DNA of 23,144 nt from Bacteroidota bacterium. GTDB taxonomy: Bacteria > Bacteroidota > Ignavibacteria > UBA10030 > UBA8401. Within the stretch, counting starts at the first letter, position 1. Each line of letters begins with the position of its first letter. This document shows, in pieces, positions 3,207 to 21,810 of this stretch. Location of the stretch: assembly GCA_049317705.1 (NCBI GenBank), contig JBMOHT010000049.1:1-23144 (forward strand). Direction: 5' to 3'. The position numbers were made by a program, and so were the translations under genes. The notes beneath the pieces are model-generated. The model did no database searches. It was given only the letters and a program-made list of their open reading frames with translations, and was not told where the DNA came from.

Positions 3207-3267
3207 AGTGCTGTTTCTCAAAAGTAATATTGTATTTGATCATCCTTCGGCGCGCGCCGCACCATGG

Positions 3268-3343
3268 TCATCCTGAGCAAGGCTCGAATTTCTTGATGGC
3301 CGCGTCGAAGGACCTCAAAATGTGCGGCGCTTGCTCAGGATGA
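3268..3343. repeat. 76-bp palindromic unit (GTCATCCTGAGCAAG ... CTTGCTCAGGATGA), perfect 14-bp arms
   Basis: tcatcctgagcaag (3268-3281) pairs with cttgctcaggatga (3330-3343). It is interleaved with further arms tccttcg (3243-3249)/cgaagga (3305-3311) and gcgccgc (3254-3260)/gcggcgc (3324-3330). Confidence 0.7.
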
Positions 3344-3390
3344 ACAATATTTTTACAAGATAATTTATGAGAAGTGGCACTAGTAATATT

Positions 3391-10100: not shown

Positions 10101-12781
10101 TTCTTCCCGAGAAACTGTTCCGGAGGGATATACAGATCGGACTTATTCGTGACACGACAGTCCAAGAAAATACCCGATCGGGTTATACGGAACATCAGAT
10201 CGGGCACGGCATCCACAATAGCCTTATTCTCCTCTTCACTCCGGCGCAGATCCTCTTCGCTACGAAGCCGCTCAGTGATGTCGCGGATCGTCACGATGAT
10301 ACCCTCGGGACCGTGATTGGTGTCGAACAGTGCCGAACAACGGATCTCGGACTGGAACGACTTTCCGTCTTTTTTCAACAATGCCGCTGATACATCGGTC
10401 AATGTCTTTTTTTCAAAGATATGATCGAACACCGCTTTCCCCGTCAACCGGTCATCCTCCGTGAACAGGTCCAGAGCACTCAATCCGAGCATCTCATCAT
10501 TGGAACCGTAACCGAACAGCTTCATACACTCGAAATTCACCAACGCGAGAGAGCCGGCTTTATCGAAGAATGCAATGGCATCCGGAGAGGATTCGATCAA
10601 CGCTCTGTTGCGTTCCTCGATCTGATGGAGGAGCTGTTCGGTCTTTTTTCGTTCCGTAATGTCGCGGGTAACGCCGATAATAACACTCTTATTATTCCAT
10701 GTTCCCAATGCGATACTGGTTTCCACATCGATGCGGTGACCGGATTTGGATATCAATGGGACGGGGCAATACTTCGTTTGTCCCGCGATCATCTCCCCCA
10801 CGATCCTCAATGCTTCCTCCCTCCGTTCGGGAACATGCAACTCGATAACATTCATCGTCCGGAGTTCTTCGATGGAAAATCCCAGCCGTTCCAGCACCAC
10901 TTTGTTCACCTCGAGAATCGTACCTTTTTCGTCCAGCACGAACATAAAATCGTTGATCGAATTGAACAACGCATTGACATTCCTCTGATTCTGGCGAAGG
11001 GATTCTTCGATGCGTTGAGAATAGATCGCTTTTCCGATCTCTTCCGCGATCGAATTCAGGATCCTTCGATCGTCGGGAGTGAACGGACGATACCGTTTCG
11101 TAGCGATATTGATCGAACCACCGACGGATTTGCCGACAAAGAACGGAATGATAGCGGCCGACGTGAATCCGAACTTTTTTCCTTTCGTCGTCTCGGAGTA
11201 TATCGGCTGCCCCTTGATAAGCACCGTTGTGTACGGTTCAGCGGTCAACGGAATTACTGAGACCTCCTTGATGAATTCTTCGGGAAGGTTGATGGATGTA
11301 TGAAGGACGCCGGAGTTCTTTTCGCGATCGATGAGATAGATACCTCCGCCGTCGAAACTGAACAGATTCAGTGTCAATTCAAGATAACGATGCAGCAGAT
11401 CGGCGGACGACGACGTATGTTCGAGTGTATCGTTAAGGACGGTGGCAAATTCGATCCTTTCGGAAAGAAGACGGTATTTATATTCGATCTCTTTCGGTTC
11501 TGAAATGTCCGAGCAGGAACCGATGAATCCGAAAAATTCGTTCGTCGGAGAATACTTCGGAACAGCATTGATCTGGATCCACCGATAGGAGCCGTCATAC
11601 CTCAGCAGGCGAATCTGAATGTTCATTGGTCTTCGCGCTTCAAAGCAGGAATGAAATACCTGTTCGAAATTCTCTTTGTCGCCCAATTGAATGGAACCGA
11701 ACCATCCATCCTCACATTCCTGTGCGAACGAATGTCCGGTAAAATCGAGCCAGCTCTTATTGAAGAAGTTAAATTTCTGCGACTGATCGGTCATCCACAT
11801 CATCACCGGAACACTCTCAACCACACTATGAAAAAGGTTCTCGCTCTCCAGTAATTGTTTATCCTGTCTGAACCGTTCAATGGCATTGATGATCGAGTCA
11901 CCAAGAAGACGGAGCAGGTCCATCGTTTCGTCAATAAATGTCCGTTCTTCCTTTACAGCATCGAAACCGATAAAGCCGACAAGACGCGATGCATAGATGA
12001 GCGGAACCACTGCGAGTGATTTGATCATCTGAGGTTCGAGGATCTCCCTCTCCGCCACCGCTTCCGGCGGAAGTTCGTCGAGTGACCTCAGCGCAATATT
12101 CTCGAACCGTTTCATCTTCCCCATCCACCACGGCAAGATCTCCGCGGGAATGCCCTGCAGATTTTCGATCTGCGGATCTATGCCATGTGCACACCATTCA
12201 TGAGTATTGTCCATGACCGTATCGTTCATGCTCAGCATAAAAATATATGAACGGTCGACATGCATCAGATCACCAATTTCGGCGAGACCAGAATTGATCT
12301 GACGGTTCAGGTCCTGAGATGATACAAGGATGAAATCTTTCGAAATACGCGAGATGGTCGCATGCAGAGTTTTATGGAACGAGACCAGCTGTTTGGCTCG
12401 GGCGTCCTCCGTGATATCCAGGAAGATCACCATGATATGATTCGTATTCCTGTCGGGAATAGTACGGATCTCGAAGATGCAGGGGTGCGTATCGACGGGG
12501 ATCTCTACGATCAGTTTATCCGATGAATCCTTTCTGTCTGTATTGACGATCAGATCTTTGATCTTTGAAGCAAGTGTAGCGGGGAAGATCTTATCCAGCG
12601 GGAGCCCGATGAGTTGTTGAAGTTGTGACTGAACGGTATCATTTTTTCCTGTAAAATACGTCCTGAGATATCCTTGAACGTCGAACCACGTTATGATCTC
12701 GGATATCCGTTGAAATTCTTTGAAAAAAATATATTCTACCGATGAGATAGACTTTCGTGCTTTAAAAATACTGTCCGCCAT
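7184..12781 (-). CDS. Giant soluble hybrid sensor histidine kinase (9 PAS/PAC + 2 GAF-like + HisKA + HATPase_c + receiver)
   Basis: 1865 aa with no TM. Nine PAC-end motifs are present: FLDITEDAR, CSDISEPKE, TRDITERKK, IRDITERLR, IRDITDRKR, LSDITQRVE, KQDITERRK, FEDITTQKQ, ISDITKSRQ. The H-box is SGIAHDMNNIL (His about aa 1507). N/G boxes are LNLCVNARDA, DSGIGI and GTGLGL (kinase core about nt 7613-8317). The C-terminal receiver has ILLVDDEE, VILDVMMPHMDG and ITKPF (about nt 7187-7546). Confidence 0.9.
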   Translation of the reverse strand: MADSIFKARKSISSVEYIFFKEFQRISEIITWFDVQGYLRTYFTGKNDTVQSQLQQLIGLPLDKIFPATLASKIKDLIVNTDRKDSSDKLIVEIPVDTHPCIFEIRTIPDRNTNHIMVIFLDITEDARAKQLVSFHKTLHATISRISKDFILVSSQDLNRQINSGLAEIGDLMHVDRSYIFMLSMNDTVMDNTHEWCAHGIDPQIENLQGIPAEILPWWMGKMKRFENIALRSLDELPPEAVAEREILEPQMIKSLAVVPLIYASRLVGFIGFDAVKEERTFIDETMDLLRLLGDSIINAIERFRQDKQLLESENLFHSVVESVPVMMWMTDQSQKFNFFNKSWLDFTGHSFAQECEDGWFGSIQLGDKENFEQVFHSCFEARRPMNIQIRLLRYDGSYRWIQINAVPKYSPTNEFFGFIGSCSDISEPKEIEYKYRLLSERIEFATVLNDTLEHTSSSADLLHRYLELTLNLFSFDGGGIYLIDREKNSGVLHTSINLPEEFIKEVSVIPLTAEPYTTVLIKGQPIYSETTKGKKFGFTSAAIIPFFVGKSVGGSINIATKRYRPFTPDDRRILNSIAEEIGKAIYSQRIEESLRQNQRNVNALFNSINDFMFVLDEKGTILEVNKVVLERLGFSIEELRTMNVIELHVPERREEALRIVGEMIAGQTKYCPVPLISKSGHRIDVETSIALGTWNNKSVIIGVTRDITERKKTEQLLHQIEERNRALIESSPDAIAFFDKAGSLALVNFECMKLFGYGSNDEMLGLSALDLFTEDDRLTGKAVFDHIFEKKTLTDVSAALLKKDGKSFQSEIRCSALFDTNHGPEGIIVTIRDITERLRSEEDLRRSEEENKAIVDAVPDLMFRITRSGIFLDCRVTNKSDLYIPPEQFLGKNIKDILPPHISDQAIASMERSFISKSMELFEYSLPMADGLRYFEDRLIALSNNEALSIIRDITDRKRAELALHENEQRLKFAFEASNDGMYDWNIEESTLFLSQRWKEMIGIENDEVSDNLSEWKDRVHPLDVDETLKKVERHINGETESYASEHRMIRKDSSIIWTLDRGKIVERNAKGMPLRMIGTLSDITQRVESEQQIKKMSVAIEQSFAMIVITDQHGTIQYVNPHFSEVTGYSQGELLGKNMRVMKSGQTSPELYSDMWKTITEGIVWQGEVINRKKNGEIYIEYDIISPIKNSLGFIENFIAIKQDITERRKNEAALEWNASLLQMMATSSPLGFLVVDNRDDRILYFNRRFCELWGITHLEEKMRTGAMKNNDIIPYCIPILEDPAAFAETCVPLQDPSNTAVLEDEIQFKSNSTIRRFSTQIVGEHGQYFGRFYIFEDITTQKQAEQLLKEREQLTTQRLTLAEGRIKDMSFYLDQASDAIVVTDLDESIVYTNDSVEQLYGYSKDELNSKALSGFFFNVSSGQNESFEMIKSGMNWEQDQEHKTKSKGNIWVHIRATIITDDSTGTRSVLYVISDITKSRQMQDQASHSQRLESIGTLASGIAHDMNNILGPILISLSYFDRVLMDDKSREINKMLKSNILRGSDLIKQILGFSRVNQQDTMVVQMKHIIRELERLINETFPKMIRAEFFPSRELFPILANPTQMHQVLLNLCVNARDAMPAGGRLEIRADNVILDEMSTHINIDAKVGPYCRITVADSGIGIPSAIIKKIYDPFFTTKEVGKGTGLGLFNVAAIIKAHKGFIVLESEVGMGTTFQIFLPATTSANINSIIEKSGDFPSGNGETILLVDDEEVIRNISKATLEDYHYKVITASNGAEALGIYASNKSEIKVVILDVMMPHMDGPSTVRAIRTMNENPHIIMMSGIHANVKVMDELGLPRENFITKPFMIDTLLKLMHQLLQP

Positions 12782-12823
12782 ACCGTCCTTAAAGTAATCA
12801 ATGATCTATTCGATCATAACTAC

Positions 12824-12839
12824 CTCAATTTTTGAGCCA
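12824..12839 (-). promoter_or_regulatory. Weak sigma54-like element TGGCTC-N5-TTGAG upstream of the giant kinase operon
   Basis: The minus strand reads TGGCTCAAAAATTGAG. GG and TTG are at canonical spacing, but -12 is GA instead of GC. The site lies about 43 nt upstream of the ATG at 12781. Confidence 0.2.
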
Positions 12840-12890
12840 CAATTATTACGGTGGAAATTGTGAAAAAACGGTGTCACCGTGTCGCCAAAC

Positions 12891-12975
12891 ATTGTCATTT
12901 GTCCACACATGTTTACATAATGACAATTGGTGTATAGTGTTCATTCGGGATATGATTGTCCGTTTACAAGACAAT
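12891..12975. promoter_or_regulatory. Cluster of four ATTGTC/GACAAT hexamers forming two inverted repeats (regulator sites or GTCAT-family repeat units)
   Basis: attgtcatt (12891-12899) pairs with aatgacaat (12919-12927), a 9-bp perfect inverted repeat with a 19-nt spacer. attgtc (12955-12960) pairs with gacaat (12970-12975) with a 9-nt spacer. Both right arms are preceded by GTTTACA. Confidence 0.35.
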
Positions 12976-13037
12976 ACATCGGAGGAAGGGAGAGCAAATA
13001 CGAAGAGAGTGACTGACCAGTTCCGTTGACGACCGAT

Positions 13038-13439
13038 TCAGTGAACCGATATTCCTTCCGGCAGCAGAAGCAGTTCGTGTCGCAAAAAATCCATCAGCAT
13101 TGATTTATCGAAGTAGGTATCCGCACCGGCCTCAAGAGCGAAATCCGCATAAAGTGCTCCCTCATAGAATGACGAAACGGCGATCCTGCCGGTGTAGGAC
13201 TGTTGACGGAGCAGTTTCACTACATCGACCAGATGCATCCCCTCGATGGAGAAGTCGATGATCAGAAGTTCGGGTGAATGTTCGGTGCAATACTGCAGCA
13301 GTTTGTCCGCGCAATGCATCGGGATCCACAGTATGTCCGAATAGAGATCATTCAGGATAGGATCGATCCGTTCGAGGAACCATGAGTTTCCGTCCGCGAT
13401 CACGACTGAATGCCGGTGTGTGTTTTGTTGTGCGTACAT
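13038..13439 (-). CDS. Single-domain response regulator (receiver only), slightly divergent acidic pocket
   Basis: 133 aa. Motifs are VVIADGN (beta1), LLIIDFSIEGM (phospho-Asp position), IAVSS (beta4 Ser) and YFDKS (Lys). It begins 3 nt after the upstream stop. Confidence 0.7.
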   Translation of the reverse strand: MYAQQNTHRHSVVIADGNSWFLERIDPILNDLYSDILWIPMHCADKLLQYCTEHSPELLIIDFSIEGMHLVDVVKLLRQQSYTGRIAVSSFYEGALYADFALEAGADTYFDKSMLMDFLRHELLLLPEGISVH

Positions 13440-13442
13440 TTG

Positions 13443-14657
13443 TCACTCCATACGGTTATGTTTAACGGACCGAAGTTCTTCCGGTCTATCCTTTGAAAGA
13501 AGCGGAATGAGGATGGAGACTGTGGTTCCATTGTTCACACTTGAATCGAACGTAATGATCCCAGCGTGGACATCTACGATCAGTTTGATGAGAGATAATC
13601 CGAGCCCCATACCGTGCTGCTGCATCGATTTCTTGTTGAACTGCATAAACTGTCCGATCTCTTCCAACTGCGGCTGCGACATACCGCAACCGTTATCCTT
13701 CACCGTGATGCGCACGACCGGACCCTCGCATTTTACCTGAAGTGAGATGAGACTGTCTTCCGGAGAGAATTTCAGTGCATTGTCCACGACCTCACTGATA
13801 ACCTTCTCCAGGTATTCCGCGGAGATGCAGATATTGGAGTCAAGATCGATCGTGGTGGTAAGACAATGTTCCCGAACATATTTTCGTGCGGTATTCCGTG
13901 CGACACTCTCGATGAGCAAACCCGCATCGTACTGGAGTTTTTCCTTTGAGAATTTCGCAATGACATTCTGATGCGTGAGAAGATAAGTATAGATTGAGAT
14001 TTTTTCGAAGATGGCTTGAAGCTGGCTTGCCCCTTTCGAAATGGAAGAACCGATACGTTTCAGTTTATGCTGGTCGATATCCTTCGTCAGTTCCGTGAGA
14101 ATGAATGAGTTTCCCGAAATAATATGGAGCGGATTGTATAGTTCGGACGGGAACACCTTCTGGATACTCTCCCGGAGTGTATCCAGGCGCTCCTCGGCAT
14201 ATTTTTTGATACGCATCAGGCGCTCTTCCTGGGCATAGAACACATTAATGAGATCCTCCACGGCAAACGGCTTCTCAAGAATATCCTCCGCACCGAGCCA
14301 CATAGCCCTCCGCACAACGAACGTATCAACTAATCCGGACATGAGAATGAACGGCACCATGGAATATCTTTCGTTGACATGGATCTCCTGAAGCAGATCA
14401 AAACCGCTTTTTCCATCCATGTGGATATCGCAGAGGATCAGGTCGATCTTCTTGTCGTGATACTCATCGAGGGAATTCTTGCCGTTGCTCAGAAAGACGA
14501 CATATTTACGCTCGATGAGTTCCAACTCCAGCGACTTCAGCCAAAATTCGTCATCATCGATAATCAAAATATTATTGATCAATCTTGTCTCCGTAGAGAA
14601 TCGATGCTCCATCTGGACAGATGGTTCGTGCTTCAAGGGAAGAAATTGAGAGATCAT
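13443..14657 (-). CDS. Receiver-histidine-kinase hybrid with Ser at the canonical phospho-His position
   Basis: 404 aa. Receiver motifs are ILIIDDDE, LILCDIHMDGKSG and ILEKPF. The DHp motif is VFPSELYNPLHIISG, against the canonical (S/P)HELRTPL. The CA domain is intact: DNALKF, DNGCGM, FMQF, GMGLGL. The start overlaps the upstream stop (ATGA 14654-14657). Confidence 0.8.
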   Translation of the reverse strand: MISQFLPLKHEPSVQMEHRFSTETRLINNILIIDDDEFWLKSLELELIERKYVVFLSNGKNSLDEYHDKKIDLILCDIHMDGKSGFDLLQEIHVNERYSMVPFILMSGLVDTFVVRRAMWLGAEDILEKPFAVEDLINVFYAQEERLMRIKKYAEERLDTLRESIQKVFPSELYNPLHIISGNSFILTELTKDIDQHKLKRIGSSISKGASQLQAIFEKISIYTYLLTHQNVIAKFSKEKLQYDAGLLIESVARNTARKYVREHCLTTTIDLDSNICISAEYLEKVISEVVDNALKFSPEDSLISLQVKCEGPVVRITVKDNGCGMSQPQLEEIGQFMQFNKKSMQQHGMGLGLSLIKLIVDVHAGIITFDSSVNNGTTVSILIPLLSKDRPEELRSVKHNRME

Positions 14658-15127
14658 ATATACCTATCGATTGAATGGTGTTCCGGAGTGGTTGCATGAT
14701 ACATATTTACGTGATGCGTTTGCTCCGGGACAGTCTGTGTGCGTATGTATTCCATGAGTAGTTGAATCCGTTCGATCACATCGCTTTTGCGGAGGAACCG
14801 AACGTATGAAAAATGTTCCTGTGAATTGAGTGCCTCGTTGGGTTCATCGAGTAAAAGAATGAACTGCAGATCGGGATGGTATCTCCTCAATTCATAAGAC
14901 TTATTGAGGATCCTTTTGATGTTTTCCGAACCTTCCAGCATGATCATGGAGACTTTCTTCTGCTGGAGCCGGGGCATAGCCGCGATGAGCATATCCGCTG
15001 TCATCTCTTCCGCCGTCATGTTCACAAATTTAAAGAACCGTTCGAGCGGATAGTTCAGGTCGTTATCACTGCAGACAACAATTACATTATCCGTGAACTC
15101 ATTTTCTCTTAATATTTGATTTTTCAT
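14654..15127 (-). CDS. Hypothetical protein with receiver-like (CheY-fold) spacing but Glu at the phospho-acceptor position (pseudo-receiver)
   Basis: 157 aa. Motifs are VIVVCSDND (D21/D23), MIMLEGS (E65), FILLLDEP (about aa 93-94) and FLRKS (K114). The spacings of 42-44, 28-29 and 20 aa match the D-D-T-K spacing of receiver domains. Confidence 0.45.
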   Translation of the reverse strand: MKNQILRENEFTDNVIVVCSDNDLNYPLERFFKFVNMTAEEMTADMLIAAMPRLQQKKVSMIMLEGSENIKRILNKSYELRRYHPDLQFILLLDEPNEALNSQEHFSYVRFLRKSDVIERIQLLMEYIRTQTVPEQTHHVNMYHATTPEHHSIDRYI

Positions 15128-15181
15128 TTTATGTTCCCCATGCGAACATGAAGTTCAACACCTATCTCTGACCACACCATA

Positions 15182-15197
15182 TCCAAACAATATGCCA
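15182..15197 (-). promoter_or_regulatory. Sigma54-like element TGGCAT-N5-TTGGA upstream of the pseudo-receiver/RR-HK/RR operon
   Basis: The minus strand reads TGGCATATTGTTTGGA. GG and TTG are at canonical spacing, but -12 is GG instead of GC. The site lies about 55 nt upstream of the ATG at 15127. Confidence 0.25.
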
Positions 15198-15304
15198 ATC
15201 GATAATCACGATTTTGCCTTGGTTTTTGGTACTTTTATATCCTGGTCCGATAATTCGGGAAACGTTCGTTTCGTTCGGTGAACTTTCATTTCCCTGTATT
15301 GCCG

Positions 15305-15316
15305 GTGTTCGAACAC
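15305..15316. promoter_or_regulatory. Perfect 12-bp palindrome GTGTTCGAACAC (possible dimeric regulator site)
   Basis: The sequence is self-complementary and has no loop. It lies 11 nt downstream of the HTH-gene stop and about 110 bp upstream of the sigma54-like element at 15182-15197. Confidence 0.3.
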
Positions 15317-15326
15317 GCACACAAGA

Positions 15327-16187
15327 TCATTCCAATACGGCAGGTTCCATCTGCCGGCAGGTGATCCGTACATTCTCAAGGTCAATGTCCTGTTCCGCGA
15401 ATGATTCCAACGTTCCGCACAGAAACAGCATATCGCGGTCCTCTGCGATCCGTTCCAGCGCGTTGATATCACTCCGCATTGTTCCACTATTCAGTGAATG
15501 TTTCATGATGCAGAGCATCATATTCGAACTGCTTCTGGCGATCCATTGTTCAACTGCGGGCCACGAAGGCACCAGTCCGAGATTCACCACCAGATACCCG
15601 GAGGTATCGAACTTCGATTCAAGAATTCTGAGCTGATGTTCAAGGGTTTGTTCGAACGTGAAGATAACGACAACGGAATTCTTCGAACTTTGCCGGTCCA
15701 TACGGTCACAAAAAGAAGTGAACGCGTTGCTGATGGAATTCTTTGCAATTCTTCCTTGCGATGTGTCGATCGTGCCGAATCCCTCCATCCGATCCAATTT
15801 CTTCAGTACAGGTACGACTACTTCCATAAGGATATCCTTTTGAAGCAGATCCCCGTTGTAGAGAAGGATAAGGAGGTCCAAGATCTCCGGCTTGTTGCCG
15901 CGCAGCGCCGAAGCGAACAAGACCGAGCGGAATGTATTGAGTTCATTCCTTCGTACCATGTCCCGGATGACCGCAGAATCGCCGTTTGATATATGTTCAT
16001 TTCCCTTCGGTCCTGAACGGTGGCTCTGCTTCGCAGCAAATTCCACTATGTGGGAGTAGGAAAATTTGCGGTGATGCCCGACCGTGCAGATACAACTGAT
16101 CTTTCCGCTGTCGGACCAGCGTTTGACGGTGGACTTGCTCACATTCAGCATCTTTGCGACCTCTTCGGTCGTCATATTCTTCTGCAT
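15327..16187 (-). CDS. DNA-binding protein: excisionase/MerR-superfamily HTH + helical bundle + degenerate B12-binding-like Rossmann domain (CarH/LitR-like architecture)
   Basis: 286 aa. The N-terminal HTH is TTEEVAKMLNVSKSTVKRWSDSGKISCICTVGHHRKF. The middle segment VVVPVLKKLDRMEGFGTIDTSQGRIAKNSI follows the P.L..vG..W..G.i...EH.a pattern with W and EH replaced. The C-terminal VVVIFTFEQTLEHQLRILESKFDTSGYLVVNLGLVPSWPAVEQWI resembles a B12-binding domain, with the His kept but the DxHxxG context lost. Confidence 0.6.
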   Translation of the reverse strand: MQKNMTTEEVAKMLNVSKSTVKRWSDSGKISCICTVGHHRKFSYSHIVEFAAKQSHRSGPKGNEHISNGDSAVIRDMVRRNELNTFRSVLFASALRGNKPEILDLLILLYNGDLLQKDILMEVVVPVLKKLDRMEGFGTIDTSQGRIAKNSISNAFTSFCDRMDRQSSKNSVVVIFTFEQTLEHQLRILESKFDTSGYLVVNLGLVPSWPAVEQWIARSSSNMMLCIMKHSLNSGTMRSDINALERIAEDRDMLFLCGTLESFAEQDIDLENVRITCRQMEPAVLE

Positions 16188-16234: not shown

Positions 16235-18022
16235 TTAGTCATTCAGTTCCGACACTGCTGCCGATCTTCCTGCCGGGTCAGCGGCTCCCCCCTCAAGAAC
16301 TGCACGACCGCCATTCCGAAGATCCTCGCGGATATGACGAGTAAACTTGCGGCGGACCGATTGTTCTTCCGTTGCAGATACCTGGGGAAGTGAGTTGATG
16401 GTATCCTGAAGGAGGCTTCGTGATCGTGTCGGCACAGCATCAAGGAATTTCATGCGGATATTCTCCGGAGCATTCTTGAGTGCAACGGCAACCTCTTCGG
16501 CCGAATGCACACGAATGATCTTACGGATGATACTGTCATCAACAGTGCCAAGATCTTCAAAAGAGACACGATGGGAGGAAAGATGACGGTATAGATCCAG
16601 ATCAAGGGTCTTGATTGTATTGCTGATGGCTGCCTCTGCATCCTCATCGATATTATCGAGGATGTCCATCAGAAGGTCTGTTCCCTGCACCTGAACATTT
16701 TGAATGGTGGGGATATTCGACGCTTTTTCCGCAAGGGTCCGGGCAACAGCAACGAACGTATCGATCGACAGCCGGTGAAGCGCGGACAATTGCATTGCGA
16801 CGTCTGCACGGGACCTCTCCGGAAGGCTCCGCAGGATCTCTGCTGAAAGGGCCGGGTCCAACTGCGAAAGCACCATAGCGGTGATCCCGGGTGATTCATC
16901 CTTTACCAACAGAAAGAGCTGCTGCTTCGACAATTTTTTCAGATACGCAAACGGGGATTGTTCCTCTTCCGCCGTAATGGCATACTGTCTGATCTGTATC
17001 TGGTTACTGAAATATGTGAATGCTTCGTCAATCACATCCTGTGAACTGAGCGAATGATCGCTGCTCATCTTTGACAGCTGAGAGTATTCGTTCTTCGAGA
17101 CATGCTCCCGTATCACCGAGAGAAGACCGAGTCCTAATTGCGAAAGGACCGGCTGCAGTCTCTGTCGATCTTCAGGGACCGCAAGCATCTGTCTGACTGC
17201 CCCGGCGGCCGCTTCCGGCCTTCCGACCGCTGCTGAGATGATGGAATGTTTGAGACGTTCATCATCCTTAACGGAACTGACCGGACGCACAGATTCAGGA
17301 AGGATATTCACAACTTTATTCTCCAGTTCTTTCACCGATGTTCTGGACCGTTCATCGGACTGCAACTGAACACGTTCGATCTCCTGCCGGAACATCTGGA
17401 GGTTCGATTTATTCTTCCTCATCAGCACAACGGCAGCGATCACAAGCATCATTACAATTGCGGAGAGGATCCCTTCGAACGGCGTCATTGCGCCGGTGAC
17501 TGCAGTCTGAACGACCGGTCTTATGACCGGCAGAGCAGTGTCCACTAACGGTTTTGCAATGACAACCGGAATCCCTTCTATTTCCGGGAACGCCATTTCG
17601 GTGATCCTCACTCTGTCGCCCCGGGAAGGATTGAGTTTACCGCTGACGATGGCAATATTGTCCAGTAATTGAATGAGTTCCCTTTTTTGCAAGGTCATTC
17701 TCTTGTCCACCAACAGTGCAACGGAAAGACGCTCGACCGAGATGACCTTCGATCCTGCGTTCTTTTCCGATTCGAAACCTTTCACGCCGGGAAGGGCAAA
17801 GTCCTTGGCATCCTTATAATCCACAGCGGTCTCTTCCTCGATCAGCATCGCGTCGCACGAGATGAGGAATTTCAGGTCGGGGTAATACCTTCTGATCTCA
17901 TTGCCGATCCTGCTTTCCACTTCGGACTCGATCAATTGTTTCTGTCTATTCACTTCGGCAGCACCTGCCATCAAGACGTTCAACACCAGCATCACAACAA
18001 TGATGAATTTAACAGTTCTCAT
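16235..18022 (-). CDS. Membrane-anchored FliG-like rotor protein: signal/TM1 + FliF/YscJ-type ring-building-motif-like periplasmic domain + TM2 + FliG N/M/C-like cytoplasmic domains (natural mini FliF-FliG fusion)
   Basis: 595 aa. aa 1-22 are hydrophobic. aa about 25-146 (nt 17585-17950) read IESEVESRIGNEIRR...LSVALLVDKRMTLQKRELIQLLDNIAIVSGKLNPSRGDRVRITE, an alpha-beta-beta-alpha-beta RBM-like pattern. TM2 is ILSAIVMMLVIAAVVLM (nt 17417-17473). aa about 255-570 are FliG-like: ESPGITAMVLSQLDPALSAEILRSLPERSRADVAMQLSAL (compare hPQtiAliLahL.pe.AaevL..Lpee.r.dv..Ria.l); RVSFEDLGTVDDSIIRKIIR (compare MFvFEDL..LDDrsiq.vLr); and ALKNAPENIRMKFLDAVPTRSRSLLQDTI (compare ALKGA...LREKFLRNMSQRAADILRDDL). 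Confidence 0.8.
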   Translation of the reverse strand: MRTVKFIIVVMLVLNVLMAGAAEVNRQKQLIESEVESRIGNEIRRYYPDLKFLISCDAMLIEEETAVDYKDAKDFALPGVKGFESEKNAGSKVISVERLSVALLVDKRMTLQKRELIQLLDNIAIVSGKLNPSRGDRVRITEMAFPEIEGIPVVIAKPLVDTALPVIRPVVQTAVTGAMTPFEGILSAIVMMLVIAAVVLMRKNKSNLQMFRQEIERVQLQSDERSRTSVKELENKVVNILPESVRPVSSVKDDERLKHSIISAAVGRPEAAAGAVRQMLAVPEDRQRLQPVLSQLGLGLLSVIREHVSKNEYSQLSKMSSDHSLSSQDVIDEAFTYFSNQIQIRQYAITAEEEQSPFAYLKKLSKQQLFLLVKDESPGITAMVLSQLDPALSAEILRSLPERSRADVAMQLSALHRLSIDTFVAVARTLAEKASNIPTIQNVQVQGTDLLMDILDNIDEDAEAAISNTIKTLDLDLYRHLSSHRVSFEDLGTVDDSIIRKIIRVHSAEEVAVALKNAPENIRMKFLDAVPTRSRSLLQDTINSLPQVSATEEQSVRRKFTRHIREDLRNGGRAVLEGGAADPAGRSAAVSELND

Positions 18023-18088: not shown

Positions 18089-18775
18089 TCATGTTCCTGA
18101 ACTGCTGTAGTAATAGATGCGAATGACCACCCGACGATTATGAGCCCGTGCATTCTCCGTGTATGTTCGGGTAACAGAATCGGTCGCGGTCTGTGCAGGA
18201 CGTGTATCGGCAAATCCGACCGCCGACAATCTCTTCCTCTCAATGCCTGACGAATCCTGCAGGAACTTCAGCACCTGAAGCGACCGTGCAGCGGAAAGTT
18301 CCCAGTTGGTCTGGAATTCCTTACCGTTGATGAGCGGCTGATCGTCCGTATGCCCTTCGATCGACAGAAATGCATTGCGCGATTCGATGAATTTTTTCAG
18401 ATGCGGCGCGAGAACGATCATCGCATTGTATCCATCCTTCACAAGCGTCGCTTTCCCGATGGGGAACAAAAGATTGGACAGGAACCGCACTTCAACCCCG
18501 TCCCCCGTCATCACCACTGTCACTGCTTTGCGGAGGACCGTATCGGCACTTACCGTTTCGTTCAACTGATGAGCGATGGTTGAAAGATTCTCCTGACGGA
18601 TCTTTCCTGTGCCGGCGTCCGCCGCAAAGACATCCAATTTTGACTGATCCGGTTTGGAGATCGCCAACAGCAGTGTAAATGCGGCGATCATGGCCGTGAG
18701 AAGGTCGATATAACTTACCTTCCAATGCCCTGCATCTTCACGACTCCGTGAAGGACGTTCCCAAAGATAATTCAT
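18089..18775 (-). CDS. motB: MotB-family stator subunit (TM with conserved Asp + OmpA-like peptidoglycan-binding domain)
   Basis: 228 aa. The N-terminus HWKVSYIDLLTAMIAAFTLLLAI carries Asp24 (codon 18704-18706) at the position of the proton-binding Asp. The C-terminus is LSIEGHTDDQP...NWELSAARSLQVLKFL...LSAVGFADTRP...NRRVVIRI. The start overlaps the motA-like stop (ATGA 18772-18775). Confidence 0.85.
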   Translation of the reverse strand: MNYLWERPSRSREDAGHWKVSYIDLLTAMIAAFTLLLAISKPDQSKLDVFAADAGTGKIRQENLSTIAHQLNETVSADTVLRKAVTVVMTGDGVEVRFLSNLLFPIGKATLVKDGYNAMIVLAPHLKKFIESRNAFLSIEGHTDDQPLINGKEFQTNWELSAARSLQVLKFLQDSSGIERKRLSAVGFADTRPAQTATDSVTRTYTENARAHNRRVVIRIYYYSSSGT

Positions 18776-19623
18776 TGACGCTGCCGAGGGTCACCAGGGA
18801 CTTTCATCTTCATGGTGGTCATCGTCCGATGTGAAGGGACATAGTTCCGGAGTTTTTCCACGACATACTGGGTCCGCTTCTTCTCGTGGATCATGACAAG
18901 TCCGTCGGTGATCATCCCCTTCAGGATGAGATTCTCTGTGTTGATGGTATTGATCTTCTCAGCAATGGGCTGGAAGATGAAATTCGAGTACAGGAGTCCA
19001 TAGAGCGTGGTGGTAAATGCAATGGACATGGAATTGATGATTCCGTTGAAACCTGAAGCGGCATCGATCTTCTGTGAGAACATCTGGATGAGACCGACGG
19101 TCGTTCCCAGCATCCCGTATCCGGGCGAGAAATTCGCGGCGGTCCTCCACAGATCGTCATCGATCTGTTCGCGGTGCATCTCCGTTCTCATGCGCAGTTC
19201 GAGCATTTCCTTCACATCCTCGATCTTATACCCATTCACGAGCATCAGAAGTCCGTCCCGCAGGAACGGGAATGATATCCCGTTCGCATATTCCTCCAGC
19301 GTTTCAATATCGCCGGACTGTGTATATTCCGAAACCGTCTGAAAAACATTGATAAAATATGGATAATCGATCTTGTTACGGATGAATACCTGGTAGAGAG
19401 CCGCATGAGAGCGCGAGAATTCACGGAAGTTGTGGCTGATCAATATGGAAGCAAGAACGCCCAATGACACAAAGATGAATCCCGGAACGTGGATATACCG
19501 GCCTACCGTATCCGAGAAATACATTTCCTGGAATGATTTTACAGCACGTTCATCTGCACCGAAGACGAGCAGTACATATGCCGCGACCACGAACATGATG
19601 TAACCAAGAAATGTTGAATTCAT
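18772..19623 (-). CDS. motA: MotA/PomA-family stator subunit (4-TM architecture with large TM2-TM3 cytoplasmic loop)
   Basis: 283 aa. The loop is ISFPFLRDGLLMLVNGYKIEDVKEMLE. The core is FSPGYGMLGTTVGLIQMF...MSIAFTTTLYGLLYSNFIFQPIAEKI...ILKGMITDGLVMI. This matches the MotA/PomA consensus (PafGmiGTviGLI...AlltTlYGvllAN.i.lPia.Kl). A roughly 100-aa loop between TM2 and TM3 distinguishes it from 3-TM TolQ/ExbB. Confidence 0.85.
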   Translation of the reverse strand: MNSTFLGYIMFVVAAYVLLVFGADERAVKSFQEMYFSDTVGRYIHVPGFIFVSLGVLASILISHNFREFSRSHAALYQVFIRNKIDYPYFINVFQTVSEYTQSGDIETLEEYANGISFPFLRDGLLMLVNGYKIEDVKEMLELRMRTEMHREQIDDDLWRTAANFSPGYGMLGTTVGLIQMFSQKIDAASGFNGIINSMSIAFTTTLYGLLYSNFIFQPIAEKINTINTENLILKGMITDGLVMIHEKKRTQYVVEKLRNYVPSHRTMTTMKMKVPGDPRQRQ

Positions 19624-19637
19624 ACTTCGTCCTTCAT

Positions 19638-20345
19638 TCAGTACATTCTCATCAGCAACGCGCGAATATTATCGAGCGTCGGATCGAGTTCAAGGGCCTT
19701 TTCCCAGGAGAGTTTCGCTTCGGCAGTCTTGTGGAGAAGAAACAGGATGGATCCTCGTACGGAATGGAACAACGAGATATTCGGTGCGATGGCGATACTT
19801 TGATCGATCTCCTGCAACGCTTCGGTATATCGTTTCACCGAAAAATACTTCTGCGCGGTATTCATGTGGACCATTGCCTTGTTGTATTTGGCGTCATCGG
19901 CGGTATATTGATTCACTGTTTGAGCACCTGCTGCTGCAGACGTATCACGGCGTTCGCGGGACTTTGCGTTCAGTGTTCGCGTTGCGATCCCAGTCACTTC
20001 TTGTTCCATCATAACATCCTTTTCTGGATCGGGTTTGAAAACCGGTCCGAATTTTCCCGAGTACGTCAGATCGAAATCGATATTCCGGTCGTTCAGGTCC
20101 AACAGAAGATCGATCGTAATCACCGGTGAACGGAGTTTCACTTCGGTCAGCGGTGACGGTGATTCCATTGTGTCCCGTAGGGACGGGACCGATCTCCCCT
20201 CTTTATCGTTTGCGATTGTATCAGGAGGACAAACAGAATCATACGTCCCCAGGGATCCCTCCCACCGGGTTCCCGAATAGAGCGGGGTGATTCCGGTGAC
20301 CAGGAAGAACAACACGAATAGATGATATCGGAATAGTATGATCAT
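19638..20345 (-). CDS. Secreted/periplasmic protein with C-terminal TPR repeats
   Basis: 235 aa. The N-terminus is a hydrophobic signal-like segment MIILFRYHLFVLFFLVTGITPLYSG. The C-terminus is YNKAMVHMNTAQKYFSVKRYTEALQEIDQSIAIAPN...AKLSWEKALELDPTLDN, about 2-3 TPRs. The start overlaps the upstream stop (ATGA 20342-20345). Confidence 0.6.
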   Translation of the reverse strand: MIILFRYHLFVLFFLVTGITPLYSGTRWEGSLGTYDSVCPPDTIANDKEGRSVPSLRDTMESPSPLTEVKLRSPVITIDLLLDLNDRNIDFDLTYSGKFGPVFKPDPEKDVMMEQEVTGIATRTLNAKSRERRDTSAAAGAQTVNQYTADDAKYNKAMVHMNTAQKYFSVKRYTEALQEIDQSIAIAPNISLFHSVRGSILFLLHKTAEAKLSWEKALELDPTLDNIRALLMRMY

Positions 20346-21532
20346 AGATAAAAGAACAGATGACCGCCGAACATCGCACCTGCGGGGTATGATTTCCCCA
20401 TTCTGATTCCGTCTTCGATCCAGAATGAATCCAATCCAAGCCCGACGATCCTGCTCAGCCGGATATTCATGCCGCCATGGTACACCGGATAGAACTGAAG
20501 CATATCAAACTGGAAATAGTATCCGGCGGCGATGTTGACCGTGATGAGTCTGCTGCCGATCTTTTCAGATTGGAGCAGTTCAAAACCAACGCCGGGTGTA
20601 CAAACAATGCCGGGGGAAGAACATCTGGGATTATATAACAGCCGTGCATCGACAAAGACATTCATCGGATCGATGATCGTGGCGACGTCGTTGAATCGAT
20701 ATCCTGTTGCTACGAACGAGTAGTGTTTGTCCGAGACATCGATGCCGCCGCTGCGGATCTTTCCTGAAAGGAACGAGAAGGTGACACCGTTCATGTCGTA
20801 TCCCGTTTTTTTCTTCAGGGAGAACAGCTCTTCCATCTTGTCCTGTTCCGTGGGCACGTATACATCGAACACGGAACGGACATATTCACGGTTCCAGATC
20901 ATGACATTGTTCAGATCATTGAGGATCAAAAATACCATGACTTGCTGTTCGGTGATAAGGATCTCGGGCGAAAGGACAGCCTGGATGTTGCGGCGTACCG
21001 CGTATTGCCGCAACTGTTCTTCCGAATAGACATTCTTCACCTGAAGTGTTGAATCATCCGCTTTAATATAGAGAGGATGAAGGTCATGACCGGAGAAGAC
21101 CGTCACCCGTTTCGACCGGGCAAGGCTTCCTTTCAGTTTGTTCTCGAAGAACGAGAGCAGGAACTGCTGATCGCTGACACTCAGATCGGTCTTCAGCAGC
21201 CATTTCAATCGCATCTTATAGATGACGAGACTGGAAATCCCCATCGGCAATTCCGCTGAGGATTCAATGATCTGCGAACTGATGGAGTCTATCACGTTCA
21301 TGTACCGTTCAAGCATCTTCTGTGAATAGATCTTCTCAACTGCAGCGGGAGCGGGATCACGAGGTTTATCGCCGGCTGCGGCGCTCAAAGGAACGGTCCA
21401 CAGAATCAATACAAGCATAACAATGGAATCAAGAATTTTCAGCAGTGGTCGCAATCGGACAGCTCTCTTTCGGTTGTTCAGTGCATTATTATCAAAGACA
21501 GCATCAATGAACGTGCCACAGAAACAGATCAC
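20342..21532 (-). CDS. Hypothetical exported protein; the C-terminal half has amphipathic beta-strand periodicity (putative outer-membrane beta-barrel). Start uncertain
   Basis: The track start at 21532 is GTG. Alternatives are TTG at 21454 (giving MRPLLKILDSIVMLVLILWTVPLSAAAG, a clean signal peptide, preceded by GAAAGAGAG) or ATG at 21418. C-terminal strands are VTFSFLSG, YSFVATGYRF, LITVNIAAGYYFQF, GGMNIRLS, GLGLDSFWIE and GAMFGGHLFFYL. Confidence 0.5.
   Translation of the reverse strand: MICFCGTFIDAVFDNNALNNRKRAVRLRPLLKILDSIVMLVLILWTVPLSAAAGDKPRDPAPAAVEKIYSQKMLERYMNVIDSISSQIIESSAELPMGISSLVIYKMRLKWLLKTDLSVSDQQFLLSFFENKLKGSLARSKRVTVFSGHDLHPLYIKADDSTLQVKNVYSEEQLRQYAVRRNIQAVLSPEILITEQQVMVFLILNDLNNVMIWNREYVRSVFDVYVPTEQDKMEELFSLKKKTGYDMNGVTFSFLSGKIRSGGIDVSDKHYSFVATGYRFNDVATIIDPMNVFVDARLLYNPRCSSPGIVCTPGVGFELLQSEKIGSRLITVNIAAGYYFQFDMLQFYPVYHGGMNIRLSRIVGLGLDSFWIEDGIRMGKSYPAGAMFGGHLFFYL
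21503..21518 (-). promoter_or_regulatory. Candidate sigma54 promoter TGGCACG-N4-TTGAT for the motor-like operon
   Basis: The minus strand reads TGGCACGTTCATTGAT. The -24 heptamer is perfect and TTG is at correct spacing, but -12 is GA instead of GC. The site lies inside the GTG-extended ORF but 49 nt upstream of the alternative TTG start at 21454. Confidence 0.4.
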
Positions 21533-21651: not shown

Positions 21652-21684
21652 AAAAAAAACCACCTCGCTGATGAGACGAGGTGG
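21652..21684 (-). terminator. Rho-independent terminator downstream of the pilin-like gene
   Basis: The minus strand reads CCACCTCG-tctcatcag-CGAGGTGG followed by TTTTTTTT. This is an 8-bp GC-rich stem, a 9-nt loop and a T8 tract, 127 nt after the stop at 21811. Confidence 0.8.
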
Positions 21685-21810
21685 CAGGGGTGTAACATAA
21701 TAAAAAAATGATCCCGTTATTTTTGACCGGGGCGGTCAAAGAAGCGCGACACGGTTTCCTTGTCGATGAAGCATACTCTCAATTACTGCCCACGAAAATT
21801 ACCGGATTCA

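What the first reader, a model, noticed from the sequence alone, without database searches (positions are those of the whole stretch)
16235..18022. Natural mini-FliF / FliG fusion in one polypeptide
In flagella, FliF (about 550 aa, three periplasmic RBMs, two TMs) and FliG (about 330 aa) are separate proteins joined by a FliF-C/FliG-N interaction. Here one 595-aa ORF has a signal/TM1 and a single roughly 120-aa periplasmic segment with an RBM-like alpha-beta-beta-alpha-beta pattern (IESEVESRIGNEIRR ... LSVALLVDKRMTLQKRELIQLLDNIAIVSGKLNPSRGDRVRITE). It then has TM2 (aa 184-202) and about 390 cytoplasmic residues that align by eye with FliG N, M and C domains, including MFxF-like RVSFEDL and the ALK...torque-helix region. 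A covalently fused and drastically shortened MS-ring/rotor would be an unusual architecture. It could represent either a reduced or an ancestral-like rotor.
Basis: partly seen in the sequence, partly recalled or inferred. Interest (0 to 1): 0.8.

Follow-up and report, generated by a model that had tools for sequence, protein, structure and literature searches.

The report
Natural FliF–FliG rotor fusion, non-flagellar
One 595-residue membrane protein joins a cut-down flagellar MS-ring protein (FliF) directly to a complete rotor protein (FliG), and it sits in a conserved operon with its own MotA/MotB ion motor but no other flagellar genes, so it looks like an undescribed ion-driven rotor–stator machine used for something other than swimming.

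Summary
The ORF lies on the minus strand at 16235..18022 and encodes 595 aa.

Its parts, in order:
- signal peptide
- one periplasmic domain
- one TM helix
- about 390 cytoplasmic residues

- The periplasmic domain is the S-ring core of FliF RBM3 without the β-collar. Its AlphaFold model finds only FliF rings in the PDB (E about 1e-5), and Pfam and profile hits agree.
- The family profile aligns to E. coli FliF 396-551/552 and, two residues later, to E. coli FliG 6-320/331. This is an in-frame FliF::FliG junction.
- RBM1, RBM2, the collar and the FliM-binding EHPQR motif are missing.

This is not a one-off. At least 190 clusters at 50% identity share the architecture. They come from uncultured Bacteroidota, Fibrobacterales and proteobacterial MAGs.

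In 20 of 22 informative loci the gene sits next to flagellar-type motA and motB, a TPR protein and a roughly 365-aa putative outer-membrane protein. No other flagellar gene is nearby.

Best reading: a non-flagellar, MotAB-driven ring rotor whose output is unknown.

The closest precedent is the shorter chlamydial FliF–FliG fusion. I found no description of this family.

The parts
16235..18022 (-). FliF(RBM3)-TM-FliF C-tail-FliG(N,M,C) fusion protein, 595 aa
   Evidence: ORF and translation. Pfam FliG_M and FliG_C above cut-off. hhalign to E. coli FliF and FliG.
17957..18022 (-). aa 1-22, probable Sec signal peptide (MRTVK-FIIVVMLVLNVLM-AGA|A)
   Evidence: Short hydrophobic run and A-x-A site. 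The median run is 13 aa in 60 family members. This is an inference; no signal-peptide predictor was available.
17585..17956 (-). aa 23-146, periplasmic FliF RBM3 S-ring core domain (alpha-beta-loop-beta-alpha-beta). A ~30-aa loop carrying the invariant LPG motif replaces the beta-collar, and an RGD motif precedes the last strand.
   Evidence: AlphaFold pLDDT 82.8. Foldseek top 17 hits are FliF RBM3 rings. Pfam YscJ_FliF_C. PDB profile hit to FliF at E 4e-4. LPG and GD are invariant in 60 diverse members.
17417..17479 (-). aa 182-202, single transmembrane helix (equivalent to FliF TM2)
   Evidence: Kyte-Doolittle 2.58. AlphaFold helix 181-230. hhalign aligns it with the E. coli FliF TM2 region.
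17165..17269 (-). aa 252-286, FliF C-terminal FliG-binding tail motif (family consensus LRxxxxxxxIGxPxxxAxVLxxWI; here AVGRPEAAAGAVRQML)
   Evidence: The top two PDB hits of a 35-column profile are the extreme C-termini of Salmonella and Vibrio FliF, at E 0.056 and 0.23. hhalign pairs it with E. coli FliF DPRVVALVIRQWINNDH.
16958..17164 (-). aa 287-355, FliG N-terminal domain
   Evidence: Profile hits: FliG_N of the Vibrio FliF-FliG fusion 8z4d (E 4e-5), T. maritima 5tdy_B (6e-4) and Salmonella FliG 5-65 (0.011). Pfam FliG_N in 7 of 26 members. hhalign starts at E. coli FliG residue 6. Foldseek aligns full-length FliG 3hjl.
16703..16957 (-). aa 356-440, FliG middle domain. The EHPQR motif is degenerate (DESPG; only the Glu is conserved in the family).
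   Evidence: Pfam FliG_M 60.4 bits. Alignment to 1lkv. Column statistics.
16313..16618 (-). aa 469-570, FliG C-terminal domain with the torque helix (PTRSRSLLQDTINSL, aa 531-545, nt 16388-16432)
   Evidence: Pfam FliG_C 67.7 bits. Foldseek to the FliG_C bound to MotAB, 8ucs_H (TMt 0.82). The Arg equivalent to E. coli R281 is R or K in 57 of 60 members.
18089..18775 (-). MotB-like stator subunit, 228 aa: TM with conserved Asp (SYIDLLT), plug, OmpA-like peptidoglycan-binding domain
   Evidence: Pfam MotB_plug and OmpA. NCBIfam MotD/MotB/MotS. PDB MotB/PomB. The Asp is conserved in all lineages checked.
18772..19623 (-). MotA-like stator subunit, 283 aa, flagellar type. Its stop overlaps the motB start by 4 nt.
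   Evidence: Pfam MotA_ExbB. NCBIfam MotP/PomA/MotA at 94-124 bits. PDB MotA/PomA at E 5e-24 to 1e-9. The equivalents of E. coli P173 and P222 are conserved.
19638..20345 (-). Secreted TPR protein, 235 aa; the C-terminal TPR pair is conserved in every lineage
   Evidence: Pfam TPR_2 and TPR_1. Present in 16 or more loci. Homologues carry signal peptides or lipoboxes.
20342..21532 (-). ~360-aa protein with no Pfam family. The maximal ORF starts at GTG 21532; the likely start is ATG 21418, ahead of a signal peptide. It has an N-terminal alpha/beta region and a C-terminal beta-rich region, and is a putative outer-membrane protein.
   Evidence: Conserved in the cassette. Only weak FlgT_M hints, in 2 of 12 members at E 0.036. 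No PDB hit. The outer-membrane assignment is an inference from the sequence pattern.
21659..21685 (-). Strong terminator-like hairpin (10-bp stem, T8) just upstream of the cassette; marks the 5' boundary of the operon

Best explanation
The gene encodes the rotor subunit of a self-contained, non-flagellar ion-driven machine.

Shown:
- The protein is a collinear fusion. In order, it has a signal peptide, the FliF RBM3 S-ring core without its beta-collar, one TM helix, the FliF C-terminal tail, and a complete FliG (N, M and C domains).
- It is co-transcribed with flagellar-type MotA and MotB that keep the channel Asp, the plug and the peptidoglycan-binding domain. A secreted TPR protein and a ~360-aa envelope protein complete the operon.

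Inferred:
- The RBM3 domains assemble into a ring just above the inner membrane. Salmonella RBM3 can do this on its own.
- The covalent link then places one FliG per subunit in a ring beneath the membrane.
- MotA5B2 units, anchored to peptidoglycan, engage the FliG_C torque helix and turn the ring as ions flow through them.
- There is no collar, RBM1/2, export gate, rod or FliM/FliN. The ring therefore cannot drive a filament or switch through CheY.
- Instead, the invariant LPG loop that replaces the collar probably couples the ring to the TPR protein and the putative outer-membrane protein. Inner-membrane ion-motive force would then be delivered to the outer envelope, in the manner of Tol-Pal or GldLM.

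The final output (surface movement, envelope maintenance or something else) is unknown.
For: Identity of the parts:
- Foldseek finds only FliF RBM3 rings at the top of the hit list.
- Pfam YscJ_FliF_C matches.
- A PDB profile hit to FliF reaches E 4e-4.
- hhalign to E. coli FliF 396-551/552 gives E 8e-8; hhalign to FliG 6-320/331 gives E 2.5e-18.
- The FliG_N and FliF-tail hits agree.

Stator competence:
- The MotB Asp, plug and OmpA-like domain are present.
- The MotA equivalents of P173 and P222 are conserved.
- The best matches are flagellar MotA, PomA and MotP.

Interface: the Arg equivalent to E. coli FliG R281 is R or K in 57 of 60 diverse members.

Linkage:
- motA and motB are adjacent in 20 of 22 informative loci, in shuffled gene orders across distant lineages.
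- In the window the genes overlap or lie within 66 nt of each other, downstream of a terminator.

Non-flagellar context:
- No other flagellar Pfam family appears among the called genes of nine loci or contig gene lists with precomputed Pfam annotation.
- The flanks that are conserved between loci encode housekeeping genes such as the ftsQ-ftsA-ftsZ genes, purL and dapF.
- Host labels are Chitinophagaceae, Bacteroidota and Fibrobacterales.

Ring competence: the RBM3 fragment alone forms the S-ring in Salmonella (PMC11739650).

Selection: at least 194 clusters at 50% identity share the architecture, with invariant LPG and GD motifs.
Against: - No oligomer was modelled or observed, so ring formation is an inference.
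- The classical charge pairs are only partly kept. The MotA R90 equivalent is Q or N. The FliG D288 equivalent is acidic in the Bacteroidota clade but Ser in most of the family. The MotA E98 equivalent varies outside Bacteroidota.
- Two distant members (L022, L023) have no motAB within 10 kb.
- I could not scan whole genomes, so flagellar genes elsewhere in these organisms are not excluded.
- The outer-membrane location of the ~360-aa protein and any contact with the LPG loop are untested.
- No output device, such as an adhesin, secretin or filament, is conserved next to the cassette.
Confidence: 0.6

Rival explanations
1. Static adaptor or sensor. The fusion does not rotate. It is a membrane scaffold that recruits and un-plugs MotAB units. 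Either MotA rotation acts on something else, or ion flux and load are read out as a signal (mechanosensing or regulation).
For: - The canonical MotA R90 / FliG D288-D289 charge pair is not conserved.
- In the window and in L001 the cassette is followed by a large block of response-regulator, histidine-kinase and HTH genes.
- No output structure is conserved next to the cassette.
Against: - The signalling genes are conserved only in the two closest loci, not across the family.
- The S-ring core, the FliF-tail/FliG_N junction, the Gly hinge and the [FY][VI]TF hinge motif of a working rotor are retained across about 190 clusters. This is more than a docking site would need.
- RBM3 is a ring-building module.
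Confidence: 0.2
2. It is the MS-ring/rotor of a genuine but streamlined flagellum. The remaining flagellar genes would lie elsewhere in the genome.
For: - All three proteins are of the flagellar type.
- Engineered FliF-FliG fusions assemble rings (PDB 8z4d/8z4g; PMC10941966, listed).
- Whole genomes could not be checked.
Against: - RBM1/RBM2, which house the export gate, and the beta-collar, which holds the rod, are absent (PMC11739650).
- The FliM-binding EHPQR motif is lost.
- No flagellar gene lies near the cassette in any locus, whereas fliF and fliG normally sit in flagellar operons, as in E. coli fliE-fliF-fliG-fliH.
- The hosts are labelled Chitinophagaceae and Fibrobacterales. From general knowledge these groups are non-flagellated.
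Confidence: 0.07
3. It is a decaying remnant of a lost flagellum, with no present function.
For: Large parts of FliF are deleted and the FliM-binding motif is gone.
Against: - The reading frame is intact in every member examined.
- The five-gene synteny is kept at 17-40% identity across several phyla-level labels.
- Invariant motifs persist.
- At least 194 clusters at 50% identity exist.
- This pattern indicates purifying selection, not decay.
Confidence: 0.03
4. It is an assembly, frameshift or gene-calling artefact that joins two genes.
For: None found.
Against: The same fusion appears in independent assemblies from NCBI, ENA, JGI and Logan, on contigs of up to 1.36 Mb.
Confidence: 0.005

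Closest known systems
Flagellar FliF (MS-ring) plus FliG (rotor) of E. coli / Salmonella, driven by MotAB
   Same: - RBM3 S-ring core fold.
- RGD-beta3-TM2-C-tail segment (hhalign E 8e-8).
- FliG N, M and C domains (E 2.5e-18).
- Torque-helix Arg.
- Flagellar-type MotA and MotB with the channel Asp, plug and OmpA-like domain.
   Different: - One polypeptide instead of two.
- No RBM1, RBM2 or beta-collar.
- Probably a cleaved signal peptide instead of TM1.
- The EHPQR FliM-binding motif is lost.
- TIGR00207 scores 103.6 bits against a cut-off of 226.7.
- No flagellar gene neighbours. The partners are instead a TPR protein and a ~360-aa envelope protein.
Chlamydiaceae FliF-FliG fusion (CT719 family; Bergeron 2016, PMC4768692)
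   Same: It is a natural single polypeptide with a shortened FliF periplasmic region, a TM helix and a FliG-like cytoplasmic part, found in an organism without flagella.
   Different: - The chlamydial protein is ~330 aa. It keeps an RBM2-like region plus a second RBM-like region, and only the FliG middle domain.
- According to the same paper, the genome holds only a few flagellar genes (FliF, FliL, FlhA), and the author suggests the fusion may interact with the injectisome protein SctQ.
- The present family keeps RBM3 only and a full FliG with a torque helix, and it brings its own MotAB.
- The NCBIfam model of the chlamydial protein matches only aa 368-408 here, at E 0.0026.
Engineered FliF-FliG fusions (Salmonella deletion-fusions; Vibrio FliFG, PDB 8z4d/8z4g)
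   Same: The junction is the same head-to-tail kind, the FliF C-terminus into the FliG N-terminus. 8z4d is the best PDB match for the junction region. Such fusions assemble rings (PMC10941966, PMC11481574, listed).
   Different: Those are laboratory constructs of full-length FliF with all three RBMs, and they work inside a complete flagellum.
Other 5:2 ion-driven motors that energise the outer envelope (Tol-Pal, ExbBD-TonB, GldLM)
   Same: The proposed logic is the same: an inner-membrane MotA/TolQ-type motor passes energy to periplasmic and outer-membrane partners. The gene set is loosely analogous to tolQ-tolR-tolA-tolB-pal-cpoB, with a TPR protein and an OmpA-like domain. This is analogy only, drawn from general knowledge.
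   Different: Here the stator is of the flagellar type, with a large cytoplasmic domain and a plug. Its cytoplasmic partner is a FliG ring protein, which none of those systems has.
RBM-ring proteins SctJ/PrgK and SpoIIIAG
   Same: They share the ring-building-motif fold. PrgK (2y9j_Y) appears as a weak Foldseek hit at E 9e-3.
   Different: They score far below the FliF RBM3 hits. They have no FliG fusion and no MotAB partner.

Membership tests
FliG (flagellar rotor / switch protein) | FliG middle domain (Pfam PF14841) | tested here: met
   60.4 bits against a cut-off of 25, aa 367-439.
FliG (flagellar rotor / switch protein) | FliG C-terminal domain with torque helix (PF01706) and its conserved Arg (E. 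coli R281) | tested here: met
   67.7 bits against a cut-off of 23.3. The Arg is R or K in 57 of 60 members. The D288/D289 equivalents are only partly kept.
FliG (flagellar rotor / switch protein) | FliG N-terminal domain that pairs with the FliF C-tail | tested here: met
   hhalign starts at E. coli FliG residue 6. Profile hits to FliG_N of 8z4d (4e-5) and 5tdy_B (6e-4). Pfam FliG_N in 7 of 26 members.
FliG (flagellar rotor / switch protein) | EHPQR motif that binds FliM | tested here: not met
   Only the Glu is conserved (55 of 60). The H, P, Q and R positions vary.
FliG (flagellar rotor / switch protein) | Equivalog-level score (TIGR00207) and a free-standing ~330-aa protein in a flagellar operon | tested here: not met
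   103.6 bits against a cut-off of 226.7. The protein is fused and 595 aa long. No flagellar neighbours.
FliF (MS-ring protein) | RBM3 S-ring core domain (RBM3a + RBM3b) | tested here: met
   Foldseek top 17 hits are all FliF RBM3, E 1e-5 to 2e-4. Pfam YscJ_FliF_C scores 24.8 bits against a cut-off of 23.8 on the isolated domain. PDB profile hit at E 4e-4.
FliF (MS-ring protein) | Beta-collar (about 110 residues inserted in RBM3) | tested here: not met
   Only ~30 residues lie between beta1 and beta2, and they are modelled as disordered (pLDDT below 50). Collar definition from PMC11739650.
FliF (MS-ring protein) | RBM1 and RBM2 (Pfam YscJ_FliF, SctJ-like) | tested here: not met
   No hit, and no room for them: the periplasmic part is ~125 aa plus a linker.
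FliF (MS-ring protein) | C-terminal cytoplasmic FliG-binding tail | tested here: met
   hhalign aligns it to E. coli FliF through residue 551 of 552. The short-profile top hits are FliF C-termini, though individually weak at E 0.056 and 0.23.
FliF (MS-ring protein) | Two transmembrane helices | tested here: inconclusive
   One clear TM (aa 182-200). The N-terminal stretch resembles a signal peptide. No dedicated predictor was available.
Chlamydiaceae FliF-FliG fusion | ~330 aa; RBM2-like plus one RBM-like region; FliG_M only; no dedicated stator | tested here: not met
   The architecture differs in every respect. The NCBIfam model NF004606 scores 17 bits over aa 368-408 only. Description from PMC4768692.
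Flagellar stator MotA/MotB | MotA channel prolines, MotB TM Asp, plug, OmpA-like peptidoglycan-binding domain | tested here: met
Flagellar stator MotA/MotB | MotA R90 / E98 charged residues facing FliG | tested here: inconclusive
   The E98 equivalent is Glu in Bacteroidota but varies elsewhere. The R90 equivalent is Q or N.
Zorya anti-phage system (ZorAB) | Long-tailed ZorA plus ZorC/D/E partners | tested here: not met
   MotA scores 13 bits to ZorA. MotB matches ZorB only generically, at 73 bits against 124 bits to flagellar MotD. No other Zor genes are present.

The most novel reading that the evidence does not exclude
FliF and FliG may originally have been one protein. On this reading the family descends from a MotAB-driven ring rotor that existed before, or independently of, the type III export apparatus and filament. 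It would then be a living view of a pre-flagellar stage of the motor rather than a later reduction. The exact FliF-end-to-FliG-start junction and the co-folded FliF-tail/FliG_N 'split domain' of flagella fit either a fission or a fusion. My data cannot tell the direction.
Probability: 0.1. Interest if true: 0.95.

Novelty: new variant of a known kind. Interest (0 to 1): 0.8.

Why it matters
It would be the first rotor–stator pair of the flagellar type (FliF/FliG ring plus MotAB) found working outside a flagellum. It is widespread in uncultured Bacteroidota, Fibrobacterales and proteobacterial lineages.

- **Evolution.** The standard objection to stepwise origin of the flagellar motor is that the rotor and stator have no use without the export apparatus and filament. 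This family offers a direct test of whether they do.
- **Structure.** A fixed 1:1 FliF:FliG ring with no collar, RBM1/2 or FliM/FliN could simplify structural and single-molecule work on torque generation.
- **Cell biology.** It points to a so far unrecognised way of delivering ion-motive force to the outer envelope.

Tried and rejected
- **Narrow periplasmic profile against the PDB.** A profile of 13 sequences found nothing relevant. A more diverse 34-sequence profile did find FliF.
- **Third homologue search.** Run with the 60-sequence alignment, it returned only the six closest proteins and added nothing.
- **The ~360-aa partner protein.** Profile searches against the PDB and Pfam gave no significant match. 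The only hint was FlgT_M in 2 of 12 members at E 0.036.
- **Literature searches.** I searched for FliG-like, FliF-like and MotAB-like non-flagellar systems, including Fibrobacter and Bacteroidetes terms. The only relevant precedents found were the chlamydial fusion and the engineered fusions.
- **Further conserved neighbours.** The conserved flanking blocks are housekeeping genes limited to sub-clades.
- **Zorya membership.** Rejected.
- **Downstream HTH and two-component genes.** I considered them as part of the system and rejected this, because they are shared only with the closest locus, L001.
- **Phylogeny of the FliG part.** I did not attempt one because no broad set of canonical FliG sequences could be retrieved. 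The exhaustive search lists only its best 150 hits, and all of them are fusion-family proteins or fragments of them.
Full report
**Observation.** The ORF is real, but it is read on the minus strand: 16235..18022, ATG start, 595 aa. Hydropathy analysis gives an N-terminal hydrophobic stretch (aa 6-24) and one strong TM (aa 182-200). The window is the whole 23,144-nt contig of an NCBI MAG labelled 'Bacteroidota bacterium', where the product is annotated only as 'FliG C-terminal domain-containing protein'.

**FliG half.**
- Pfam FliG_M (60.4 bits) and FliG_C (67.7 bits) pass their curated cut-offs.
- T. maritima FliG 1lkv aligns to aa 356-580 at E 9e-22. In that alignment RVSFEDL lies opposite MFVFEDI, and ALKNAP...PTRSRSLLQD lies opposite ALKGAS...SKRAAALLKD.
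- The full-length AlphaFold model (pLDDT 69) is helical from aa 249 to 570. Foldseek aligns it to full-length FliG of Aquifex (3hjl, 333 columns, E 7e-12) and of Salmonella.
- A profile of aa 248-358 from 26 diverse relatives hits FliG_N of the Vibrio FliF-FliG construct 8z4d (E 4e-5), T. maritima FliG_N 5tdy_B (6e-4) and Salmonella FliG 5-65 (0.011). Pfam FliG_N matches 7 of the 26.
- hhalign of the 60-sequence family profile against E. coli K-12 FliG gives 99.0% probability and E 2.5e-18, pairing window aa 287-572 with FliG 6-320 of 331.
- All three FliG domains are therefore present.

**FliF half.**
- On the whole protein, Pfam YscJ_FliF_C scores just below its cut-off (21.6 against 23.8 bits, aa 89-145). 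On the isolated domain it scores just above (24.8 bits). It matches 23 of 34 diverse members, with a best E of 4.8e-7.
- Modelled alone from 22 sequences, aa 22-150 folds as alpha-beta-[disordered loop]-beta-alpha-beta, with pLDDT 82.8 and pTM 0.70.
- The 17 best Foldseek hits in the PDB are all FliF RBM3/S-ring structures from Salmonella and Vibrio, at E 1e-5 to 2e-4. The next fold family, OsmC/Ohr, starts at 4e-3, and PrgK appears at 9e-3.
- A diverse sequence profile hits a solved FliF chain over the whole domain at E 4e-4.
- According to PMC11739650, RBM3 consists of RBM3a and RBM3b, which form the S-ring core of two helices and three strands, interrupted by a ~110-residue beta-collar that grips the rod. 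The same paper reports that the RBM3 fragment alone forms the ring.
- Here the core is kept but the collar is replaced by a ~30-residue loop. That loop carries an LPG motif that is invariant in 60 members of 17-42% identity, as is the GD of the RGD motif.
- RBM1 and RBM2 are absent.

**Junction.**
- hhalign of the family profile against E. coli FliF gives 94.5% probability and E 8e-8. It pairs window aa 109-284 with FliF 396-551 of 552. This span covers the RGD strand, TM2, the cytoplasmic linker and the terminal FliG-binding tail, with GRPEAAAGAVRQMLAVPE opposite DPRVVALVIRQWINNDH.
- The FliG alignment begins two residues later, at window aa 287 and FliG residue 6.
- A 35-column profile of the tail ranks the extreme C-termini of Salmonella and Vibrio FliF first and second among 177,635 PDB sequences. 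The scores are weak taken alone (E 0.056 and 0.23).
- The protein is thus what read-through of adjacent fliF-fliG would give, combined with deletion of RBM1, RBM2 and the collar. In E. coli K-12 the two genes overlap by 8 nt.
- The N-terminal hydrophobic stretch is short (median uncharged run of 13 residues in 60 members) and is often followed by an A-x-A-type site. It is probably a cleaved signal peptide rather than FliF's TM1. This is an inference.

**Family and context.**
- Word-indexed searches found about 50 close relatives. All were ~600 aa and all were fused.
- An exhaustive HMMER scan of 1.84 billion representatives found 194 with E <= 1e-30. The best 150 are almost all 560-780 aa and are matched end to end.
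- Of 152 sequences examined (148 of those representatives plus four family references), 124 also match a narrow model of the periplasmic domain, and nearly all show a mid-sequence TM helix.
- Source labels include Bacteroidota and Chitinophagaceae MAGs, Gammaproteobacteria and other Pseudomonadota, 'Deltaproteobacteria' and Fibrobacterales. No cultured organism turned up.
- In the window, the genes upstream on the same strand are:
  - a ~360-aa protein with no Pfam family (20342..21532);
  - a TPR protein (19638..20345);
  - MotA (18772..19623);
  - MotB (18089..18775).
- These genes overlap by 4 nt or are separated by 14-66 nt. They lie downstream of a strong terminator at 21685..21659.
- The same five genes occur in all 14 genome loci and in L015, wherever the flank is long enough. 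They recur in a different order (fusion, ~360-aa protein, TPR, MotA, MotB) in distant lineages: L016, L019, L020, and with further shuffling L017 and L018.
- Flanking genes differ between sub-clades and are housekeeping genes.
- No other flagellar family appears among the Pfam-annotated neighbours.
- Two distant members (L022, L023) keep the TPR neighbour but have no motAB within 10 kb.

**Stator.**
- MotA matches flagellar MotP, PomA and MotA models at 94-124 bits, and solved MotA/PomA at E 5e-24 to 1e-9.
- MotB has the plug, an OmpA-like domain and the essential TM Asp (SYIDLLT, aligned to B. subtilis PYADILT). The Asp is conserved in every lineage checked.
- The MotA equivalents of E. coli P173 and P222 are conserved.
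- Rotor–stator interface:
  - The equivalent of FliG R281 is R or K in 57 of 60 members.
  - The D288 equivalent is acidic only in the Bacteroidota clade.
  - The MotA R90 equivalent is Q or N, and the E98 equivalent is Glu in Bacteroidota but variable elsewhere.
- Other FliG motifs: only the Glu of the FliM-binding EHPQR motif survives. The hinge Gly (59 of 60) and the [FY][VI]TF hinge motif are kept in most members; this clade has RVSF.
- The cassette is not a Zorya system.

**Interpretation.**
- The identity of the parts is secure.
- The mechanism is inferred from their known roles. RBM3 would build a ring. The covalent link would set one FliG per subunit. Peptidoglycan-anchored MotA5B2 units would turn the ring through the FliG_C torque helix.
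- Without a collar, RBM1/2, export gate, rod or FliM/FliN, the ring cannot drive or switch a filament.
- The invariant LPG loop, the universally linked TPR protein and the putative outer-membrane protein suggest that the work is delivered to the outer envelope.
- In one lineage (L018) the TPR-family neighbour itself carries two RBM3-like domains (local hmmsearch E 9e-22). This fits stacked periplasmic rings.
- The output is unknown.
- Rivals are a non-rotating scaffold or sensor, a streamlined true flagellum, a decaying relic and an artefact. They are weighed in the structured fields above. The last two are effectively excluded by the conservation.

**Comparison and novelty.**
- The nearest natural precedent is the Chlamydiaceae FliF-FliG fusion: ~330 aa, an RBM2-like region plus one RBM-like region, and FliG_M only (PMC4768692). 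It has no torque-generating FliG_C domain; that paper reports only a few flagellar genes in the genome (FliF, FliL, FlhA) and suggests the fusion may interact with the injectisome protein SctQ.
- Engineered FliF-FliG fusions are full-length and work inside flagella.
- Seven full-text searches found no description of this family or of the five-gene cassette. The library does not cover all journals, so 'undescribed' is provisional.
- I rate it a new variant of a known kind: the flagellar rotor–stator module in a new architecture and a new, non-flagellar context.
- The direction of evolution, fusion and reduction or retention of an unsplit ancestor, is not resolved by these data.

Noticed in passing
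window 21811..22224 (-): A 137-aa ORF has a pilin-like N-terminus (MGQNQILLIILGMIIIGVTIAVAITLVQENS) and no Pfam or NCBIfam hit. A strong terminator at 21685..21659 separates it from the cassette, so it is probably unrelated to it.
   Followed up: partly
window 2440..16187 (-): A dense signalling block lies downstream of the fusion. It holds an HTH/excisionase-like 286-aa protein, a REC-like 157-aa protein, a REC-HK hybrid, a REC protein, an 1865-aa GAF/PAS-rich hybrid kinase, a REC-PAS-HK, a sigma-54 activator and another REC protein. The part from the HTH gene to the 1865-aa kinase is shared with the closest locus L001 only, so the block is not part of the conserved cassette.
   Followed up: partly
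L018 5185..6501 (+): In the 'Deltaproteobacteria bacterium TL4' locus, a 435-aa neighbour of the fusion carries two tandem RBM3-like domains (local hmmsearch E 9e-22) followed by a TPR-like C-terminus. In this lineage the periplasmic partner may itself build rings.
   Followed up: partly
L002, L003, L005, L014, L015 (upstream of the cassette): In one Bacteroidota sub-clade the cassette lies immediately downstream of genes carrying the FtsQ, FtsA and FtsZ Pfam domains in L015; the homologues in the other four loci were grouped by sequence clustering. This could be a coincidence or a hint of a role in the division or envelope machinery.
   Followed up: no
L022 and L023: The distant family members P0129 and P0125 keep a TPR neighbour but have no motA or motB within 10 kb. 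L022 also has a small PilZ-domain gene next to the cluster. These lineages may borrow stators encoded elsewhere or work differently.
   Followed up: partly
window 20342..21532 (-): The maximal ORF of the ~360-aa partner starts at GTG 21532, with a 37-residue extension that is absent from its homologues. The likely start is the ATG at 21418, directly before a signal peptide (MLVLILWTVPLSAAAG).
   Followed up: partly
P0014 / L014: One and the same 601-aa protein is labelled 'Bacteriovoracaceae bacterium' in one NCBI record and lies on a contig of a 'Bacteroidetes bacterium' MAG in another. This is a binning or label conflict to keep in mind when reading the taxonomic spread.
   Followed up: no
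window 195..1976 (-): A 593-aa multi-pass membrane protein carries a TMEM260-like protein O-mannosyltransferase domain (Pfam PF11028, E 2e-31). It is unrelated to the finding.
   Followed up: no
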